Assembly (NCBI GenBank): GCA_003707115.1
Contig: PPNB01000017.1
Location: 124,001-170,139 of the forward strand
Direction: 5' to 3'
Length of the DNA stretch: 46,139 nucleotides
Origin: Tortispora ganteri
Lineage: Eukaryota
Part shown: positions 35,008-43,039 of the stretch, in pieces
Layout of the letters: each line of letters starts with the position of its first letter
Numbering within the stretch: position 1 is the first letter of the stretch
Made by a program: the position numbers and the translations under genes
The notes under the pieces: generated by a model
Database searches by the model: none
The model's input: only the letters and a program-made list of their open reading frames with translations
What the model was told of the DNA's origin: nothing

Positions 35008-35142
35008 TTTGGTCTTTTTAGTAAATAAAAAAGGAAAAAACTGCAGCATATTTTGGAGATAAATTTCCAACCTGAATACTTCTCTCCTTACTGTATATGA
35101 ACTAATGTAACTCTTAACTAGTGTAACTTCCCACTCGACACT

Positions 35143-38019
35143 ATGAAGATTTTGAAGCCATCGTGGTTATCGCACCGCGATGAGAATAAATTCTTTGATA
35201 TTTACTCAATAGATATCTCACCGGATGGCAAACGGCTTGCTTCAGGTGGACTGGATGGCAAAGTGTGCCTCTGGAGCACTGATCACGTTCTCGAACTACA
35301 TAACCCGTCCAAGACGCGTCTCCTGTCCAGCATGAGTACACACACTGGTGCCGTTACTAATGTGCGGTTCGCACCGCACGGCAGATATTTGGCTTCCGGT
35401 TCAGACGATAGAGTGGTGCTAATATGGGAACACGACTTAGATGCCGCACCTATGGCCGAATTCGGTGCAACTGAAGCTGAATCCGAACGCTGGATTGTCC
35501 GAAAACGCTGCGTTGGCCACGAAAATGACGTACAAGATCTAGCATGGGCTCCTGATTCCTCTATACTTGTGTCTGTGGGACTAGACTCGGCTATTATTGT
35601 TTGGTCTGGATCTACTTTCGAAAAGCTAAAGCGTATAGACGCGCATCAATCTCTAGTTAAGGGCATCACCTTCGATCCAGCCGGTAAGTTTTTCGCAACT
35701 GCCTCAGACGATCGAACTGTAAAAATATTCCGTTATCATCGATCTTCTCCTACTGAGTTCTCTTTTTCTTTGGAACAGACTATCACTAAACCTTTTGAGA
35801 ACTCTCCTTTAACTACCTATTTCAGACGTCTCTCTTGGTCTCCAGAAGGCAACCACATTGCTGCTGCGAACGCTATAAATGGACCAGTACCTACCGTGGC
35901 CATAATATCCCGTGGCTCTTGGTCTTGTGATATTAGCCTTATTGGCCATGAAGCACCAATTGAAGTCGTAACATTCTCTCCTCGCATATACTCCTCGCTT
36001 TCAGATAAACGTATTCTCGCAACTTACATTGCTGCTGCGGGACAAGACAAATCCGTGTCGGTATGGAACACTACAAATCCGCGCCCCTTGTTTGTTGCTC
36101 AAAATTCTGCAAATAAAACCTTTACTGATTTGCGATGGAGCCCGGATGGTCTCAACCTTTATGCGGCTTCAATGGACGGTTCTATTGTCGTGTTCTGCTT
36201 CCAAGAATCTGAACTAGGACCTGTAGTCCCTATTTCTGAAAACGAGAAGCAGCTTGCGAAATTTGGCGGCGGTGGAGATATGACCCATTTCCCAGAATCA
36301 GTTAAGCAGCTTGAACTAGAAAGAATTGCTGCTGAAAAGGAATCAATCCAGAATGAATCTCGCATGAATGACCTTATGGGTGATTCTGAGAATAAACCAA
36401 TGACTGTTGCTAAACCTGTATTAGCTGAGCCTGTATCGACATCAAAACCAACTCCTTCTCCAGATGTCGCAGAGGCTCGCTCAGATGCCGCTTCAGAATT
36501 ATCTGCTGCAGCTGCTTCTACCGCTGCAACTGCCCCTCATTCTGTGAATCGCAACTCATATAGTTCTTCTGCGACTAACACACCTACAAAACAGAAAGTC
36601 TCAATTACAAAAGATGGACGTAAACGCGTTGCCCCTCAGCTTGTATCAACTAGCAGGAGCCAACAAGACAACGCACTTTCCTCGGCCCCGATTATGACAG
36701 CTCAGCACACTAACCAGCAGTTGGTTACTTCAGATAATAGGACGGCAATAGATTACTCGAAACCTTCTAATGTTCTCCCCTCTGGTGGAATATCTGCGTT
36801 GGTAGTAGGAAACAAGCGCCGATTGAAAGTGACTGAAGATAATGAAAAAGAGAATGGTAATGATACAAAGAAAATTGCGACCGACTCTGTTGAAAAGCTA
36901 TTTCCAGATTATATTCGACCTGCAGTTGTATCGCCTGCACTAGTCATGTCTCACGTGAGATTGGCTACTCCAAAAGTACAAACTGTGATCAATTTCCGTT
37001 CCAACAAATTCCCGTTTGTTCTAGAAATCCGCAATGGGTCAGGATCAGAAAGGGCTCCTACTCGACTCATTCTTTCTGAAAAGGATACTATCATATGGCA
37101 AGATTTCCTGCCGAGAACTGTCATATTAGCTACAGCAAGCTTGAATTTCTGGGCTGCATTGACCGAAGATGGATCTGTTCACATATATTCACCTGCGGGA
37201 AGACGAATATTACCACCCATTGTACTCGAATCGGTGCCCTGTTTTGCGGAATGCAATGACCGATTTTTAATGGTTCTAACTTCGACTGGACAGGTATACG
37301 TCTGGGATATATTAGCGCGCAAAGCGCTGCATGCGCCAGTTTCAGTAGCTGCCATCCTTGACAGTGCCGCATTGTCAGATCATCAGCTTCACAAAGCGCC
37401 TTCTATTACACAATGTGGTATTTCAGAGGCAGGGTCACCACTTATTTCTTTGACAACAGGAGACTCATATGCGTATTCATCGGAAATGTTATCATGGCAT
37501 AGAATCTCTGAATCGTGGTGGGCTGTTGGATCCCAGTACTGGGATTCCAGCGTCGTTCGTAAACTTGGTGGAGTTATTGGGGCAACTGAAAGACGTACCG
37601 ATAGTCAGTTGCTGCTGCAAGGACGAGGAAGACTTCTGCAACGGCTTGTTAAGGCTGCCCAAATGCGTGAAGGATGCGAAAATATCGGTAGCGTGGTCTC
37701 AACGGGCCACTTGGAGAACCGTTTGGGCGTAGCTATTTTGTTGAATCTGTCTGAAGAGTTAAAAAACCATATGCTCATGTATGCACGGCTATTGGCACAG
37801 GAAGGGTTGAAGGATAGACTCGAAGAATTGTTCTCTGAGTTGCTCGGTCCTGGAGATGCTGATCCAAACTGGGACCCTTTATTGTGCGGATATAAGAAGC
37901 AAGATCTACTCCGTGAGATACTTCAAGCTATTGGACGAATTCGAGAAGTCCAGAAAATCACAGTTCCCTATGCTGAGGCATTAGGAATTGTTAAGGATGT
38001 TATGGATGTAGACTCATAG
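35143..38019 (+). CDS. HIR1: HIRA histone chaperone/transcription regulator
   Basis: MKILKPSWLSH, WD40s with FRRLSWSP, B-domain QKVSITKDGRKRVAP, Hira C-domain (GRRILPPIVL, HLENRL). Confidence 0.93.
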   Translation: MKILKPSWLSHRDENKFFDIYSIDISPDGKRLASGGLDGKVCLWSTDHVLELHNPSKTRLLSSMSTHTGAVTNVRFAPHGRYLASGSDDRVVLIWEHDLDAAPMAEFGATEAESERWIVRKRCVGHENDVQDLAWAPDSSILVSVGLDSAIIVWSGSTFEKLKRIDAHQSLVKGITFDPAGKFFATASDDRTVKIFRYHRSSPTEFSFSLEQTITKPFENSPLTTYFRRLSWSPEGNHIAAANAINGPVPTVAIISRGSWSCDISLIGHEAPIEVVTFSPRIYSSLSDKRILATYIAAAGQDKSVSVWNTTNPRPLFVAQNSANKTFTDLRWSPDGLNLYAASMDGSIVVFCFQESELGPVVPISENEKQLAKFGGGGDMTHFPESVKQLELERIAAEKESIQNESRMNDLMGDSENKPMTVAKPVLAEPVSTSKPTPSPDVAEARSDAASELSAAAASTAATAPHSVNRNSYSSSATNTPTKQKVSITKDGRKRVAPQLVSTSRSQQDNALSSAPIMTAQHTNQQLVTSDNRTAIDYSKPSNVLPSGGISALVVGNKRRLKVTEDNEKENGNDTKKIATDSVEKLFPDYIRPAVVSPALVMSHVRLATPKVQTVINFRSNKFPFVLEIRNGSGSERAPTRLILSEKDTIIWQDFLPRTVILATASLNFWAALTEDGSVHIYSPAGRRILPPIVLESVPCFAECNDRFLMVLTSTGQVYVWDILARKALHAPVSVAAILDSAALSDHQLHKAPSITQCGISEAGSPLISLTTGDSYAYSSEMLSWHRISESWWAVGSQYWDSSVVRKLGGVIGATERRTDSQLLLQGRGRLLQRLVKAAQMREGCENIGSVVSTGHLENRLGVAILLNLSEELKNHMLMYARLLAQEGLKDRLEELFSELLGPGDADPNWDPLLCGYKKQDLLREILQAIGRIREVQKITVPYAEALGIVKDVMDVDS

Positions 38020-38069: not shown

Positions 38070-38451
38070 TGTATTAAGATTTGACCCTAAGTCGGTTTTT
38101 TATGTATAGGCGGGTGATTCATTGACTCTCTAGAAGTAGGGAGGACCACAGGTTCTTCATACAACTTGAAGTAAAGATAAAATATACGATGGTAGGATTG
38201 TTACCTACTAATCCTTCTTCTAGTTCTAACTGTAATACCAAGAGAATGGTTACATAGAACACATATAACTAGAAAGATAATACTGATGTACGATCAGTAT
38301 ATGCCCGATTCGGAGTGAGACAAGAGGTGTATGCATAGCATCCTAATGAATGCCCGAGCAGGGCCTCTAATAAGGGAACGTGCTAGTTTCACGTAACCTT
38401 CAGTTAGGAAACCAGCCAAATATGTTCTCAGTTGCTAAGATATTATCAATA
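38070..38451 (-). repeat. 3' LTR (382 bp)
   Basis: Homologous to 40460-40940 (7 mismatches in the 119-nt core 38153-38271); minus strand reads TATTGA..ATACA. Confidence 0.85.
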
Positions 38452-38458
38452 CTCCCCT
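38452..38458 (-). other. Polypurine tract
   Basis: Minus strand AGGGGAG directly abuts the 3' LTR, as in copia-type elements. Confidence 0.65.
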
Positions 38459-38819
38459 GGATCTACAATACTTCGTCAAGTGGTGTAGATCTTTGATGAA
38501 ATATCTTTTATAGTCCGTACAACTGTTATGGGGTGTTGTATAACTTGATGATTAATCAATGAGGAAACTGTCCTTTGTTCCTGCACCGTACAAGATTTAA
38601 TAATCTTGTCACCATCTAAATGGCACAGGTCAACATAAGTTTCGAGTTTTGCGCCATGCCCATACACATTACTACTGAAGTTCTTACTTTCAGTAATCAT
38701 ATAGTACATTCTGCGTCGGGGGTTGATACGGATGGGTACTGCATGGACGTTGTGATGTTCTTACAACACTTCTCAGAACTATCAACTCCACTATTGAGTG
38801 TCCATGTATGCCTTCTGTC
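38459..38819 (-). pseudogene. Degenerate pol remnant (aspartic-protease-like start)
   Basis: In frame after the gag TAG: DRRHTWTLNSGVDSS, similar to copia W(I/L)LDSGA(S/T); stop at 38697-38699. Confidence 0.5.
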
Positions 38820-39974
38820 CTATTGTGATTTAGCATGGAGGACAGGTTGATTCTTGTCTGCTTTAGCAGGCTTCTTCGGACGCTTCTTGAATTTTTTCTG
38901 CTCAACAACAGCAGGGTTTGCAACAATTCGTTTGGCCATAACCGCCGAAGCTGGTACAGTCTGAAGACCAATTTCTTCATATATTATTTGAATCTTATTG
39001 TCTCGCATGGCTTGAAGTTCACGAAAAGTTTTAGCACTAATACCCGTTCCAATGGTGTGCTTCTCTAGCATTTCAGTGACCCATGTTTTAAATGTTTGGT
39101 CAACTGAGGGATAGTATTGCCAGTTAAGCACCGTGATCCATCTATAAAAGTCATTCCATTCAATCATTTCTAGTAATTTCTCCATACGTTGATGTTCTGG
39201 AAGAATTTCAGAATACTGTTTTCCAATGAACGTAGACCAATCGTTTCCCATATACGAGTAAAATATACGTGTCACGTCTTGCAGAGTAACTCGTTTAAGA
39301 ATTTCCCGTGATCTAGCGTCAAAAGTTGGAAAATCTAGGATGTCCAGGAAATTTCTATAATTTCTCTGTAGAGATTCGGAAGTGATTGAAGAAGCCAGGA
39401 TAGTCATAACTTTCGACGTACACATCCATTCCACCACATAGGATTGAATGTCAGCGAATACTAAGGCCATAGTGGGGCGATTAACAACACTCTTAACAAA
39501 TCTTGGGTGAATATTTCTAGCGAGTAGGGCATTCTCCAATCTGTACAGTAAGTCTGACTCAGTCAAACGAACGTATTCGGCAATCTCTTTTGTACAGAGT
39601 CCAGGAGCAAGCTCTTCTTTCCAGCTCAGATCCATCATCGAGGCGGAAATATCAATTTCGGAAGTAACCTCGCGATACAAGTCTCTCAAAGATATATTCT
39701 TCAGATTATTCATCAAGACTTTCATATTCTTAGTGTACTTCTCGTTTAGACCTGCACTTAAACCTTGGAGTTCAAGTCTATCCATAATCCTCTTTTTCCA
39801 TTCAATATATTCCAGTGAGTTAAAACCAACGCTTAGCTTGATAGCAATTGGTTCTTCAGAGGCATCTGTAATCTGTTTACGCCTCTGTTCCCATGCTTGG
39901 AAAGTAGTTTCAGGGATACGCTTATAGAGGTAAGATTCTTGATTTTCAATATTTTCCTCTCTCGATTCACCCAT
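38820..39974 (-). CDS. gag: Gag-like protein, 384 aa
   Basis: Lies between LTRs downstream of the PBS; N-terminal EYIEWKKRIMDRLELQGL resembles copia NY..WK..M...L...GL; basic C-terminus KKFKKRPKK; no CCHC knuckle. Confidence 0.75.
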   Translation of the reverse strand: MGESREENIENQESYLYKRIPETTFQAWEQRRKQITDASEEPIAIKLSVGFNSLEYIEWKKRIMDRLELQGLSAGLNEKYTKNMKVLMNNLKNISLRDLYREVTSEIDISASMMDLSWKEELAPGLCTKEIAEYVRLTESDLLYRLENALLARNIHPRFVKSVVNRPTMALVFADIQSYVVEWMCTSKVMTILASSITSESLQRNYRNFLDILDFPTFDARSREILKRVTLQDVTRIFYSYMGNDWSTFIGKQYSEILPEHQRMEKLLEMIEWNDFYRWITVLNWQYYPSVDQTFKTWVTEMLEKHTIGTGISAKTFRELQAMRDNKIQIIYEEIGLQTVPASAVMAKRIVANPAVVEQKKFKKRPKKPAKADKNQPVLHAKSQ

Positions 39975-40097
39975 GTTGATAGTTGAACCAGTATATGAGA
40001 AAATTATATTATCTGACTTGGGGAGAAGAATGGAATTCTATATCACACATTACATCCCTTTTCAAATCCTCATTTTCTGTGATAAGCGAAAGATTTC

Positions 40098-40169
40098 AGG
40101 TTCGACCCCTGGCGGCTAGGTTGCTAGAGGTTCAACCCCTGGCGGTTAGCTCGCTAGAAGTTCAACCCT
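40098..40169. repeat. 30-bp tandem repeat x2.4 in the retroelement leader
   Basis: aggttcgacccctggcggctaggttgctag / aggttcaacccctggcggttagctcgctag / aagttcaaccct. Confidence 0.9.
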
Positions 40170-40427
40170 GCAACGAATGGTAGCTTTCTAATAAGAACTT
40201 AGATCACAATAAAGGTTTTGTTGGACGCCAACGTAATAATTCTTTGTCCCTATTGGGTCACCTACTATTCCAGTGAAACTAGAGTTAATCAATAGACTTT
40301 ACTTAGGCAAAATTATTCAACGTAGGTAGGGAACTCGTTAAGCCATGATTCCCCACCCCAAGTCACTCATCAGGCATACAACGCCACTTCACAGTTGTAC
40401 TGACTGTGAAGACATCAGTGACTGATG

Positions 40428-40459
40428 TAGCTGTGGAAGAGCAATTGAGACTCTTAATC
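40428..40459 (-). other. Primer-binding site complementary to the 5' half of tRNA-Lys(CUU)
   Basis: Plus strand TAGCTGTGGAAGAGCAATTGAGACTCTTAATC abuts the LTR; GACTCTTAATC is the tRNA-Lys(CUU) anticodon stem-loop sequence. Confidence 0.75.
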
Positions 40460-40940
40460 TGTTATTAATGTTTGACTCTAAGTTGTTATTTAGCCGGGTA
40501 AGTCATTGACTCAGTAGAAGTAGAGGATCGTACGTTCTTCATACAACCTAAAGTAAAGATAAATTATATGATGGTAGGATTGTTACCCACTAATCCTTCT
40601 TCTAGTTCTACCTGTAATACCAAGAGAATGTTTACATAGAACACATATAACTATGAAAGATAACACCGATGTCCGATCCGGTGTGAGACAAGAGGAAGTC
40701 ATAAGTATGCGTAGCATCCTTATGGAGTCCGAGCAGGGCCTCTAATAAAGGAACCTGGTAGTTTCAAGTAACCTAAGATTCACCTCACGCATGCTATACT
40801 AGAATGATCTAACACTCGTAAGCTTACTGCTTGCGATTGTCTAAAGTTCAAGGTAGGTTAGGTGCGTCCTTTTATAGGATTGGAATAAGGATTAGGGAAC
40901 CTAGCCAGATAGGTTCTCAGTTGCTAAGATAATATCAACC
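40460..40940 (-). repeat. 5' LTR (481 bp) with TATA box
   Basis: Homologous to 38070-38451; minus strand reads GGTTGA..TAACA; TATAAAA at 40876-40870. Confidence 0.85.
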
Positions 40941-40990
40941 AAAGGCCACCTCCCACCTGTCAACCCACCTTCTTCATATTCAGCATTATT

Positions 40991-43039
40991 ATGAGTGGCA
41001 GTTCTACTGTCCGTAACAAGGCGCCGGCGCCTGTTCAGATTTCTTCGGAACAGATTTTGGCAGAAGCACAGGCTTTAAGGCAGGATAGAAAGAAGAACGT
41101 GAAACTTGATGTCGTTGATCTAGAGGAACTCAGCGAGTTCCAGCGACATAAAAGGGAAGAGTACGAAGGTGCACTCCAAAGGAAGTCACATGATATCAAG
41201 CAATGGATCAGATACGCAGAATGGGAAGCTGAACAGAAGGAATTTTCAAGAGCTAGATCTATATTTGAAAGAGCACTATCTTTACATCCATATGACGTCC
41301 CGTTGCGTCTTCGCTACATTAGAAGCGAACTGAAGCATGAGAACATCAACCATGCTCGCAATCTCCTAGAACAGTCTGTTGTACTGTTGCCTACAATTGA
41401 GAAGATCTGGTATGAGTACGTACAAGTTGAAGAAAAATTGGGAAATATACCAAAATGTCGTGAATTGTTTAGCAGATGGGCTAAATTTGCAACCAATCCT
41501 AAACCTATGCTATCGTGGATCGACATGGAGTGCCGCTACAAAGAGTGGTCAAACGCGCACGTAATATTTGAGAGCCTATGTCAGGCCTTTCCTCAATCAG
41601 AAAACTGGATAAAATGGGCTGCGTTTGAGAATGCGCATGGGTCTTCAAAATCAACTCGTCTAGTTTACACTAAAGCTATAGACACCACCACTCGGATGGC
41701 AAACTTAGATGAGATCTTATTTATCGAATTTGCTCGTTGGGAAACTTCTGTCAATGAATTAGAGAGAGCTCGCGCCATATACAAATACGGCCTTCATGTA
41801 CTACCTCCAAATCAAACTTACCGGCTGTATACTGCATATGCTACATTTGAAAAATTGCATGGTTCACCTGAAGACCTTGTAAATGTCATCACTGTTGAGC
41901 GGAAATCTGTGTATGAAAAAATACTAAGTCAAGATCCAAAAAATTATAGTACTTGGATAGCATATTTACAAATGGCTATAGGGGGTTTCCCTACTGAACA
42001 AGTACGTGCACTTTTCGATCGCGCTGTCGCTCAAATTCCTGAACAGAAAGACAAAAATACATGGAAAGAATTCGTGTATTTGTTTATTTATTATGCTTCA
42101 TGGGAGGAAGTGGCTAACAATGACATAGAAAAAGCGGACCAAATATACTCTAATTGTTTGAACCTGATACCTCATAAATCGTTCACGGTCGCTAAGGTTT
42201 GGCTCTTGTATGCGAATTTAATGATTAGACGAAAATTGTTACCTGAGGCTCGAAAACTGTTAGGCAAATCGATTGGAATGTGTCCTAAACCTCGTCTATT
42301 CAAGGGCTACATTGAAGTTGAATTGAACTTACGTGAATTTCAGAGGTGCCGGATCATCTATGAGAAATATTGCCAGACTTTCTCTACTACCCCGGAGCCG
42401 TTTATCGCGTTTGCTAATATGGAACAAAATTTAGGCGAAGATGAACGCGCTAGGGCTATCTTTGAAATAGCCTTGGATATACCGGATATGTGTAAAAGAG
42501 GAGATCTGTGGGCTGGGTACATACAATTTGAGATTGAAGAAGGAGAGTATGGGCGAGTGCGAGACCTGTTCGGAAGATTTATCAACGATATTCCAACTTA
42601 TGAGCCATGGGTTGAGCTAGTGCAATTTGAGCTTGTTGCACCTGATCCCGAAGGAGAAAATGATAAGCAAGAAAATATTGATCATGAAGAGGATGAGACT
42701 GTGGAGTTCTCAGAACGTCCCGCTACCGAGTTAGGTGTTATCAGGGCTCGCAAAGTTTTCGAAAAAGCCATTATTCATTTTTCGAAGAGCTCTCAAGTTA
42801 ATGATCGCGTTGCTATTCTAGCAGCCTGGAAAGAATTTGAACAAATTTATGGAACCGAGGATACATTACAAAAAGCTATTAGTTTGCAGCCTCAAATGAT
42901 TGTCAAACAGAAGAAAATAGGCGAAAACGTTTTTGAAGAATATGAAGCTTATGAATTTCCTGAAGATAAACTTGCTCAGGAAGCCAATGTTAACTTCCTG
43001 AAAGCTGCACATTCCTGGAAAGAGAAGATTCAAAGTTAA
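40991..43039 (+). CDS. CLF1: Crooked-neck/HAT-repeat pre-mRNA splicing factor
   Basis: VRNKAPAPVQISSEQIL, RARSIFERAL, INHARNL, LGKSIGMCPKPRLFKGYIE, C-terminal AHSWK. Confidence 0.95.
   Translation: MSGSSTVRNKAPAPVQISSEQILAEAQALRQDRKKNVKLDVVDLEELSEFQRHKREEYEGALQRKSHDIKQWIRYAEWEAEQKEFSRARSIFERALSLHPYDVPLRLRYIRSELKHENINHARNLLEQSVVLLPTIEKIWYEYVQVEEKLGNIPKCRELFSRWAKFATNPKPMLSWIDMECRYKEWSNAHVIFESLCQAFPQSENWIKWAAFENAHGSSKSTRLVYTKAIDTTTRMANLDEILFIEFARWETSVNELERARAIYKYGLHVLPPNQTYRLYTAYATFEKLHGSPEDLVNVITVERKSVYEKILSQDPKNYSTWIAYLQMAIGGFPTEQVRALFDRAVAQIPEQKDKNTWKEFVYLFIYYASWEEVANNDIEKADQIYSNCLNLIPHKSFTVAKVWLLYANLMIRRKLLPEARKLLGKSIGMCPKPRLFKGYIEVELNLREFQRCRIIYEKYCQTFSTTPEPFIAFANMEQNLGEDERARAIFEIALDIPDMCKRGDLWAGYIQFEIEEGEYGRVRDLFGRFINDIPTYEPWVELVQFELVAPDPEGENDKQENIDHEEDETVEFSERPATELGVIRARKVFEKAIIHFSKSSQVNDRVAILAAWKEFEQIYGTEDTLQKAISLQPQMIVKQKKIGENVFEEYEAYEFPEDKLAQEANVNFLKAAHSWKEKIQS

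What the first reader, a model, noticed from the sequence alone, without database searches (positions are those of the whole stretch)
40428..40459. Primer-binding site matching the 5' half of tRNA-Lys(CUU): half-tRNA priming with an unusual tRNA
Seen: the element RNA after the 5' LTR reads GATTAAGAGTCTCA, not the usual TGG of a tRNA 3'-end PBS. Its complement TAGCT-GT-GG-AAGAGCA-AT-TGAGACTCTTAATC tracks the D-arm and anticodon arm of a typical eukaryotic tRNA-Lys(CUU) (TAGCTCAGTCGGTAGAGCATGAGACTCTTAATC, recalled from memory). Known: copia and Ty5 prime with a tRNA-iMet 5' fragment, and Candida Tca2 with a tRNA-Arg(UCU) fragment (PBS GATTAGAAGTC). Inference: this is a Lys(CUU) variant of that mechanism, which I do not recall being described.
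Basis: partly seen in the sequence, partly recalled or inferred. Interest (0 to 1): 0.8.

Follow-up and report, generated by a model that had tools for sequence, protein, structure and literature searches.

The report
Lysine half-tRNA primer site, already known
A worn-out jumping gene in a budding yeast starts its internal sequence with a primer site matching the middle of a lysine tRNA; this is real, but the same site was already published in 2017 for a common group of fungal Copia elements.

Summary
On the minus strand an LTR element spans 38070-40937. Its 5' LTR ends in CA at 40461-40460. The next bases, GATTAAGAGTCTCA (40459-40446), have no TGG.

Their complement, with the LTR's last base, is a 15-mer. 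A metagenome scan found it in 124 loci. 52 lay in ARAGORN tRNA calls, 51 of them tRNA-Lys(CUU), and in 50 the 15-mer starts at base 27 or 28, i.e. tRNA positions 27-41.

The upstream 18 nt resemble the D-arm only with gaps (15 matches, 1 mismatch, 3 deleted, 2 extra). This score was reached by 26 of 5000 shuffles.

The reading as a half-tRNA primer site is therefore well supported. The novelty claim is not. Donnart et al. 2017 (PMC5445492) give ATTAAGAGTCT as the PBS of the FunCo1 fungal Copia clade, complementary to an internal region of tRNA-Lys. That 11-mer lies exactly in this site.

This copy is degenerate:
- its LTRs are 90% alike
- it has no pol
- its gag-like ORF has no relatives
- it has no target-site duplication

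The host is a Tortispora-like yeast, and its own tRNAs could not be read. I rate it a new member of a known kind, of low to moderate interest.

A side observation remains unexplained: an antisense tRNA-Arg(ACG) 3' half, partly repeated, in the leader.

The parts
40460..40937 (-). 5' LTR (478 nt, TG...CA). It has about 100 nt more than the 3' LTR, including a TATAAAAGG word.
   Evidence: LTR alignments: 319 of 354 aligned pairs identical. Raised depth of host contigs over 40575-41002 shows further copies (table 2).
40446..40459 (-). Core primer-binding site GATTAAGAGTCTCA. It is complementary to positions 27-40 of tRNA-Lys(CUU); the LTR's last A (40460) would also pair with position 41.
   Evidence: The 15-mer lies in 52 ARAGORN tRNA calls, 51 of them Lys(ctt), starting at base 27 or 28 in 50. 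It contains the published FunCo1 PBS.
40428..40445 (-). Extension with a gapped complementarity to the D-arm (about positions 8-26) of tRNA-Lys(CUU).
   Evidence: score 6, reached by 26 of 5000 shuffles and 8 of 5000 random window pieces. Rfam's tRNA model does not see it.
40387..40427 (-). Two predicted hairpins just downstream of the PBS region (40427-40413 and 40411-40387). Role unknown.
   Evidence: MFE -22.3 kcal/mol, z -2.13; 8 of 200 shuffles fold as well.
40084..40168 (+). tRNA-Arg(ACG)-like 3' half (40084-40120), antisense to the element, followed by a 30-nt tandem array (40098-40168) with two B-box-like words.
   Evidence: RF00005, 5'-cut hit, 13.1 bits, E 1.1. tables 7-8: host and two other organisms' contigs match from 40084/40085 and carry an ACG anticodon loop before it..
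38820..39974 (-). Gag-like ORF, 384 aa, all-helical, with no detectable relatives.
   Evidence: No Pfam family above cut-off (13), no word-search hit (14), no hit among 1.84 billion representatives (42), AF2 pLDDT 35.9 (50), Atlas best 0.88 (68).
38452..38458 (-). Polypurine tract AGGGGAG, 3 nt before the 3' LTR.
   Evidence: Read.
38070..38448 (-). 3' LTR (379 nt, TG...CA).

Best explanation
The site is the minus-strand primer-binding site of an LTR retrotransposon of the half-tRNA priming type.

Proposed mechanism (inferred, not shown here):
- A 5' fragment of cytoplasmic tRNA-Lys(CUU), ending in the 3' strand of the anticodon stem at position 40 or 41, anneals to GATTAAGAGTCTCA directly 3' of U5.
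- Reverse transcriptase extends it into the LTR to give minus-strand strong-stop DNA, as in copia, Ty5 and Tca2.
- The further gapped match to the D-arm is most likely a decayed remnant of a longer complementarity. Plus-strand synthesis copies part of the primer back into the element, so the site is renewed from the tRNA at each cycle.

The copy in the window is a dead or non-autonomous member of its family. It has a gag-like ORF only and no pol. Its LTRs are diverged and unequal, and there is no target-site duplication. It sits in the spacer between a HIR-like gene and CLF1 of a Tortispora-like yeast. The kind of site is the one published for the FunCo1 clade of fungal Copia elements.
For: Shown by sequence:
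- The PBS starts at the first base after the LTR's CA, with no TGG.
- There is a PPT AGGGGAG before the 3' LTR and a gag-like ORF on the same strand.
- Another LTR copy in the host has a TGTTG terminus, the terminus that the papers read describe for Ty5 and Ty1-like elements (table 7).

Shown by comparison:
52 of them lie in ARAGORN tRNA calls: 51 Lys(ctt) and 1 odd 85-nt call named His(atg). The 15-mer starts at base 27 in 33, base 28 in 17, base 26 in 1 and base 36 in 1.
- The D-arm part is alike beyond chance: 26 of 5000 shuffles and 8 of 5000 random window pieces reach its score.
- Five metagenome loci (L005, L012, L020 with two copies, L085, L086) show the same layout, an LTR-like end ...CA followed by the same PBS. 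In L005 an ORF begins 97 nt downstream.

Literature:
- The FunCo1 PBS ATTAAGAGTCT is described as complementary to an internal region of tRNA-Lys (PMC5445492, passages). It is present exactly at 40448-40458.
- Internal-region PBSs for tRNA-Arg(UCU) and tRNA-iMet exist in Candida albicans (PMC4139406, passages).
- The Ty5 PBS pairs with the anticodon stem-loop of tRNA-iMet (PMC13017519, passages).
Against: - The host's own tRNA-Lys(CUU) was not seen: no genome is held and the window has no tRNA. So pairing with the host tRNA is inferred.
- The tRNA genes used for comparison were fetched with the window's own 15-mer. Identity over positions 27-41 is therefore by construction. They show only where this word occurs in nature.
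- Rfam's tRNA model finds no 5' half at 40405-40459.
- The D-arm match needs 3 deletions, 2 insertions and 1 mismatch in 18-19 nt.
- The copy has no pol and no pol remnant and its ORF has no relatives. Membership of Copia or FunCo1 therefore rests on the PBS, the termini and the layout.
- The flanks TTGGT and TTTCC do not form a target-site duplication.
- Whether other host copies keep the PBS could not be read. The one diverged contig over 40337-40461 has listed differences at 8 places between 40368 and 40425, but differences within 30 letters of a contig's end are not listed (table 3).
- No data on primers, cDNA or RNA.
Confidence: 0.8

Rival explanations
1. It is a decayed Tca2-type site for tRNA-Arg(UCU). 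By the reader's quoted Tca2 PBS, that site differs from the Lys site by only two adjacent bases. Two substitutions in an old copy could therefore mimic a Lys(CUU) loop.
For: The copy is old or recombinant: the LTRs are 90.1% alike with several indels. Internal tRNA-Arg(UCU) sites are known in yeasts (PMC4139406).
Against: All 15 of 15 bases equal real tRNA-Lys(CUU) genes, and the site contains the published FunCo1 PBS 11-mer exactly. Two precise changes with none elsewhere in the 15 nt is unlikely. No host tRNA-Arg(UCU) was available for a direct comparison.
Confidence: 0.03
2. The tRNA-like stretch is captured tRNA-gene DNA, from an insertion next to a tRNA-Lys gene or from read-through or template switching on a packaged tRNA. 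It is not what primes this family.
For: The same element carries a second tRNA-derived piece with no evident priming role, the antisense tRNA-Arg(ACG) 3' half at 40084-40120. So tRNA sequence has been captured by this family. The D-arm part is gapped.
Against: - The stretch lies inside the element, between the 5' LTR and gag.
- It starts at the very first base after the LTR and stops at tRNA position 40/41, as in other half-tRNA sites.
- The same word after an LTR-like end recurs in unrelated metagenome contigs and in FunCo1.
- A second, diverged host copy also covers 40337-40461.
Confidence: 0.07
3. Priming does not use a tRNA. It is either self-priming as in Tf1, or goes through a conserved hairpin as proposed for fungal GalEa elements, and the tRNA likeness is incidental.
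For: Two stable hairpins lie just downstream (z -2.13, with 8 of 200 shuffles folding as well). Fungal GalEa elements have a hairpin site in place of a PBS (PMC5445492).
Against: No second copy of the 11-mer or of its complement, even with one mismatch, lies in the 5' LTR, as Tf1-type self-priming would need. The hairpins do not start at the LTR boundary. A chance 15-nt identity to a tRNA anticodon arm exactly at the boundary is very unlikely (my estimate, not a computed figure).
Confidence: 0.03

Closest known systems
FunCo1 clade of fungal Copia retrotransposons (Donnart et al. 2017, PMC5445492)
   Same: [quoted passage not shown]
   Different: - FunCo1 was defined by RT/RNase H phylogeny. 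This copy has no pol, so clade membership cannot be tested.
- FunCo1 was reported almost only in Pezizomycotina: 270 species, plus 2 copies in Lipomyces starkeyi and none in 57 other Ascomycota genomes. This host is a Tortispora-like budding yeast.
- The gag-like ORF has no detectable relatives.
Tca2 and other Candida albicans elements with an internal tRNA-Arg(UCU) primer site
   Same: Both are yeast LTR elements whose PBS abuts the LTR and pairs with an internal region of a tRNA ending in the anticodon arm. Some have an extensive region of complementarity (PMC4139406), like the gapped D-arm extension here.
   Different: The tRNA differs: Arg UCU against Lys CUU. Tca2 is an intact element, while this copy lacks pol.
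copia (Drosophila) and Ty5 (Saccharomyces and relatives)
   Same: Both show half-tRNA priming from the anticodon stem-loop. The Ty5 PBS is complementary to the tRNA-iMet half-molecule, and Ty5 has TGTTG...CAACA termini (PMC13017519). Another LTR copy of this family also starts TGTTG.
   Different: The primer tRNA is initiator Met there and Lys(CUU) here.

Membership tests
LTR retrotransposons with an internal (half-tRNA) primer-binding site | [quoted passage not shown] | tested here: met
   GATTAAGAGTCTCA starts at 40459, the base after the LTR's CA. No TGG follows.
LTR retrotransposons with an internal (half-tRNA) primer-binding site | At least 10 nt of perfect complementarity to the anticodon stem-loop of a cytoplasmic tRNA, ending in the 3' strand of the anticodon stem. 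| tested here: met
   The 15-mer 40446-40460 equals positions 27-41 of tRNA-Lys(CUU) genes: 51 of the 52 tRNA calls holding it are Lys(ctt). These tRNAs were fetched with the 15-mer itself and come from unnamed metagenome contigs.
LTR retrotransposons with an internal (half-tRNA) primer-binding site | The host's own tRNA carries the complementary sequence. | not testable with these tools
   No genome is held. The window has no tRNA. The laid host contigs showed no tRNA-Lys piece among the rows printed, and 80 pieces and 18 loose ends were not shown.
LTR retrotransposons with an internal (half-tRNA) primer-binding site | [quoted passage not shown] | not testable with these tools
   This needs cDNA or small-RNA data. 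No RNA holder was listed.
FunCo1 Copia clade | PBS ATTAAGAGTCT after the 5' LTR. | tested here: met
   There is one exact match in the window, at 40448-40458 on the minus strand.
FunCo1 Copia clade | RT/RNase H groups with FunCo1 in a phylogeny, with the Copia gene order PR-IN-RT-RH. | not testable with these tools
   This copy has no pol. The 360 nt between gag and the PPT give no Pfam or homologue hit. A 4754-nt host contig that probably holds pol could not be read (table 8).
Ty1/copia-type LTR element in general | LTRs with TG...CA ends, a PPT before the 3' LTR, gag first, and a 5-bp target-site duplication. | tested here: inconclusive
   TG...CA ends, the PPT and a gag-like ORF are present. 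The flanks TTGGT and TTTCC do not match. The ORF matches no gag family: Pfam gives nothing, and the Atlas gives only leads, 0.88 to a cluster where 33% carry zf-CCHC and 0.84 to Retrotran_gag_2.

The most novel reading that the evidence does not exclude
The Tortispora-like yeast may hold a separate, undescribed lineage of LTR elements rather than a FunCo1 offshoot. Its marks would be an orphan capsid-like protein, a Lys(CUU) half-tRNA primer site with extended D-arm pairing, and a second tRNA-derived module in the leader. That module is the antisense 3' exon of tRNA-Arg(ACG) with repeated B-box-like words. It might bind a second tRNA half, or the Pol III factor TFIIIC, for packaging, targeting or insulation. 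Two tRNA-half modules in one element would be a new arrangement.
Probability: 0.12. Interest if true: 0.5.

Novelty: new member of a known kind. Interest (0 to 1): 0.25.

Why it matters
Little changes for the field. Priming from the anticodon arm of tRNA-Lys(CUU) is already in print for the FunCo1 Copia clade.

The modest value lies in host range. The same site turns up in an early-branching budding yeast (Tortispora-like), where FunCo1-type elements were all but unreported: 2 copies in Lipomyces and none in 57 other Ascomycota genomes in the 2017 survey.

It is also a reminder that LTR annotation tools which look only for tRNA 3'-end sites will miss such elements. The antisense tRNA-Arg 3' half in the leader is the one feature here without a ready explanation.

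Tried and rejected
- Whole genome of the window: not held. The host's tRNAs could not be scanned.
- ARAGORN and Rfam at gathering score on the window: no tRNA.
- Rfam at E up to 10 on 40000-40520 and on 40405-40459: only weak snoRNA-like chance hits and no tRNA 5' half.
- Sequencing runs: two holders of the stretch (X1, X2; 0.94 of the words) and no RNA holder listed.
- Laid contigs: tRNA-Arg contigs were picked up at 40084-40115. No tRNA-Lys piece appeared among the printed rows, and many rows were not printed. The PBS of the second copy could not be read, because differences within 30 letters of a contig's end are not listed. From the assembler's word length (recalled as 31, not from a call) I suspect that 40432-40461 is identical in both copies. 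However, the identical tract seems to run on into the LTR to about 40626, so it says little about the PBS itself.
- Gag-like ORF: Pfam gives only TFIIS_M at E 0.18, below its cut-off. The word-based search gave nothing. HMMER against 1.84 billion representatives gave 0 hits at E up to 0.001. The AF2 single-sequence model has mean pLDDT 35.9, too poor for a fold search. The best Atlas score is 0.88, a lead only. There is no likeness to the L005 ORF.
- Region between gag and the PPT: a 94-aa open frame has no Pfam family (best E 0.1) and no longer homologue.
Only 2 have CA before the site, and neither looks like an element.
- Records behind the metagenome loci: not held, so pol could not be sought beside L005, L012, L020, L071 or L086.
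- Pfam on the L005 ORF: only DUF4219 at E 0.057 and FlgM at E 0.039, both below their cut-offs.
- Papers: Neuveglise et al. 2002 was sought by DOI and by a guessed PMC id and is not held. A search for 'Tortispora' with 'retrotransposon' listed 2 papers, neither about elements (listing only). A string search for the PBS listed 20 of 49 papers; by title, only Donnart 2017 concerns retrotransposons (listing only). Of the 8 supplementary files named in Donnart 2017, 4 are held as text and none holds the FunCo1 PBS string. The pptx and pdf files were not seen and may hold FunCo1 structure details.
- Earlier findings of this scan: none, by place, words or sequence.

Full report
**What is there**

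The window is gene-dense yeast DNA of about 42% G+C. Between a HIR-like WD-repeat gene (open frame 35122-38019, plus strand) and CLF1/crooked neck (ATG near 40991, plus strand) lies an LTR element on the minus strand.

Its parts:
- The repeat finder saw only a 131-nt core shared at 92%.
- Gapped alignments show two LTRs with TG...CA ends: the 5' LTR at 40937-40460 (478 nt) and the 3' LTR at 38448-38070 (379 nt).
- The LTRs are identical at 319 of 354 aligned positions (90.1%). There are several indels, the largest a stretch of about 100 nt, including a TATA-like word, that only the 5' LTR has.
- A polypurine tract AGGGGAG (38458-38452) precedes the 3' LTR.
- A 384-aa ORF (39974-38820) follows a 485-nt leader.
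- The 360 nt between that ORF and the PPT hold no pol remnant that Pfam or a homologue search can see.
- The flanks (TTGGT and TTTCC in element sense) do not form a target-site duplication.

This is therefore an old, recombinant or internally deleted, non-autonomous copy.

**The observation**

The boundary is well fixed:
- Both LTRs run alike up to the CA and diverge after it.
- A third LTR copy in the host's contigs leaves the window's sequence at 40466/40467. Its own terminus reads TGTTG on the plus strand, followed by unrelated flank (table 7).

There is no TGG. The 11-mer ATTAAGAGTCT occurs exactly once in the 46 kb, at this junction. With one mismatch allowed there are 3 matches against 1.61 expected, so the count alone means nothing. 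The position is the point.

**Which tRNA**

No genome is held for the window, and the window has no tRNA gene. I therefore fetched real tRNA genes with the window's own 15-mer (40446-40460) from metagenome contigs:
- 52 of the loci hold the 15-mer inside an ARAGORN tRNA call.
- 51 of those are tRNA-Lys(ctt). One is an odd 85-nt call named His(atg).
- The 15-mer starts at base 27 in 33 calls, base 28 in 17, base 26 in 1 and base 36 in 1.

In nature this word is thus chiefly positions 27-41 of tRNA-Lys(CUU): the 5' strand of the anticodon stem, the loop CTCTTAA, and the first three bases of the 3' strand. The identity over these positions is by construction. What the test adds is the tRNA's identity and the register.

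**The D-arm claim**

I compared the 18 nt upstream (40428-40445) with the nine distinct 19-nt stretches that precede the 15-mer in those tRNAs.
- The best alignment, to TAGCTCAGTCGGTAGAGCA, has 15 matches, 1 mismatch, 3 bases missing and 2 extra.
- This score was reached by 26 of 5000 shuffles and by 8 of 5000 random window pieces.

The likeness is real but gapped. Rfam's tRNA model reports nothing on 40405-40459, even as a cut-off hit at E up to 10.

Two of the metagenome look-alikes (L071, L085) also carry the complement of AGAGC one to three bases after the core site. Others (L005, L012, L020) do not (read by eye).

**Relatives of the layout**

Among the 72 loci not in an ARAGORN tRNA, several are plainly uncalled or truncated tRNA-Lys genes. 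Five loci (L005, L012, L020 with two copies, L085, L086) show an LTR-like end ...CA followed by the same site (read by eye).

In L005 an ORF starts 97 nt downstream. Its only Pfam hints are below cut-off: DUF4219 at E 0.057 and FlgM at E 0.039. The records behind these loci are not held, so pol could not be sought. A scan of viral contigs gave nothing element-like.

**Other copies in the host**

Two coded runs hold the stretch. Their contigs show further diverged copies.
- One contig over about 40337-40461 differs from the window at 8 listed places between 40368 and 40425. Differences within 30 letters of a contig's end are not listed, so the PBS itself cannot be read from it.
- A 4754-nt contig matches gag (38535-39439) with 111 differences and runs on for about 3.8 kb in element sense. 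It is probably a full-length relative with pol. I could not read it.

**The host**

CLF1 of the window is 88% identical to the protein of Tortispora caseinolytica NRRL Y-17796. The next hits are about 43% identical, mostly proteins named from filamentous ascomycetes. The host is therefore a Tortispora-like, early-branching budding yeast.

**The ORF**

The 384-aa ORF has no Pfam family above cut-off, no word-search hit and no hit among 1.84 billion representatives. The single-sequence model is all-helical but has a mean pLDDT of 35.9. The Atlas gives leads only: 0.88 to a cluster where 33% of members carry zf-CCHC, and 0.84 to a Retrotran_gag_2 cluster. 'Gag-like' rests on position and layout.

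**How it most likely works**

- Shown: the place, the register and the tRNA identity of the site.
- Inferred from the known half-tRNA systems: a 5' fragment of tRNA-Lys(CUU) ending at position 40 or 41 anneals here and primes minus-strand strong-stop DNA.
- The longer, gapped D-arm match would be a decayed remnant of primer sequence copied back into the element.
- Tf1-type self-priming is unlikely, because the LTR holds no complement of the site.

The rivals are rated at 3-7% each: a decayed Arg(UCU) site, captured tRNA DNA, and hairpin priming.

**What is known**

Donnart et al. [quoted passage not shown] The window's site contains that 11-mer exactly.

Internal sites for tRNA-Arg(UCU) and tRNA-iMet in Candida albicans are reviewed in PMC4139406 (passages). 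The Ty5 site for the tRNA-iMet half-molecule is described in PMC13017519 (passages).

A full-text search for the PBS string found 49 papers and listed 20. By title, only the 2017 paper concerns retrotransposons. The other 29 were not listed.

**Verdict**

Its novelty is not upheld. This is a new, degenerate member of a known kind, in a host group where that kind was barely recorded. Membership of the FunCo1 clade cannot be tested without pol.

**In passing**

On the window's plus strand, antisense to the element, the leader carries a stretch (40084-40120) that matches the 3' half of a tRNA. Rfam gives a 5'-cut hit to model positions 36-71 at 13.1 bits and E 1.1.

Contigs of the host and of two other organisms match it from 40084/40085 on. 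In the other two the match is 32 nt with 1 mismatch, in short contigs of depth 1073 and 461. Before the match they carry letters that, by eye, form an ACG anticodon loop plus an intron-like insert. That would make it the 3' exon of tRNA-Arg(ACG) (tables 7, 8).

It is followed by a 30-nt tandem array (40098-40168; 2.4 copies, 87% matches) with two B-box-like words. A second host copy has a similar unit before 40169. I have no tested explanation for this module.

Noticed in passing
window 40084-40168 (+ strand, antisense to the element): The 3' half of a tRNA-Arg(ACG)-like gene, starting exactly where the host's gene has an intron-like insert, sits in the element's leader. A 30-nt tandem array (2.4 copies) with two B-box-like GGTTCRANNCC words follows. 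A second diverged copy in the host has a similar unit. The element RNA would be complementary to a tRNA 3' half about 340 nt downstream of the PBS. Unexplained.
   Followed up: partly
window 40387-40427 (- strand): Two predicted hairpins lie directly after the PBS region: a 6-7 bp stem at 40427-40413 and a 9-bp stem at 40411-40387. The 96-nt fold has z -2.13. They might serve dimerisation or packaging, or mean nothing.
   Followed up: partly
window 38070-40937 and flanks: The element fills the whole spacer between the stop of a HIR-like WD-repeat gene (38019) and the ATG of CLF1 (about 40991). The start of its 5' LTR lies only about 54 bp from the CLF1 start codon, pointing away from it. The CLF1 promoter must therefore lie within or overlap the LTR.
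   Followed up: no
window 38535-39439 (host contig, table 8): A 4754-nt contig of the host matches the gag-like ORF with 111 differences (about 12%) and continues for about 3.8 kb in element sense. It is probably a full-length relative with pol, which would allow the family to be classified.
   Followed up: no
L020 (metagenome contig, 601-615 and 777-791): Two copies of the same Lys-type PBS, each after an LTR-like ...TTGACA end, face each other only about 160 nt apart, with inverted-repeat sequence between them. This is an odd head-to-head arrangement of two truncated elements or a palindromic rearrangement.
   Followed up: no
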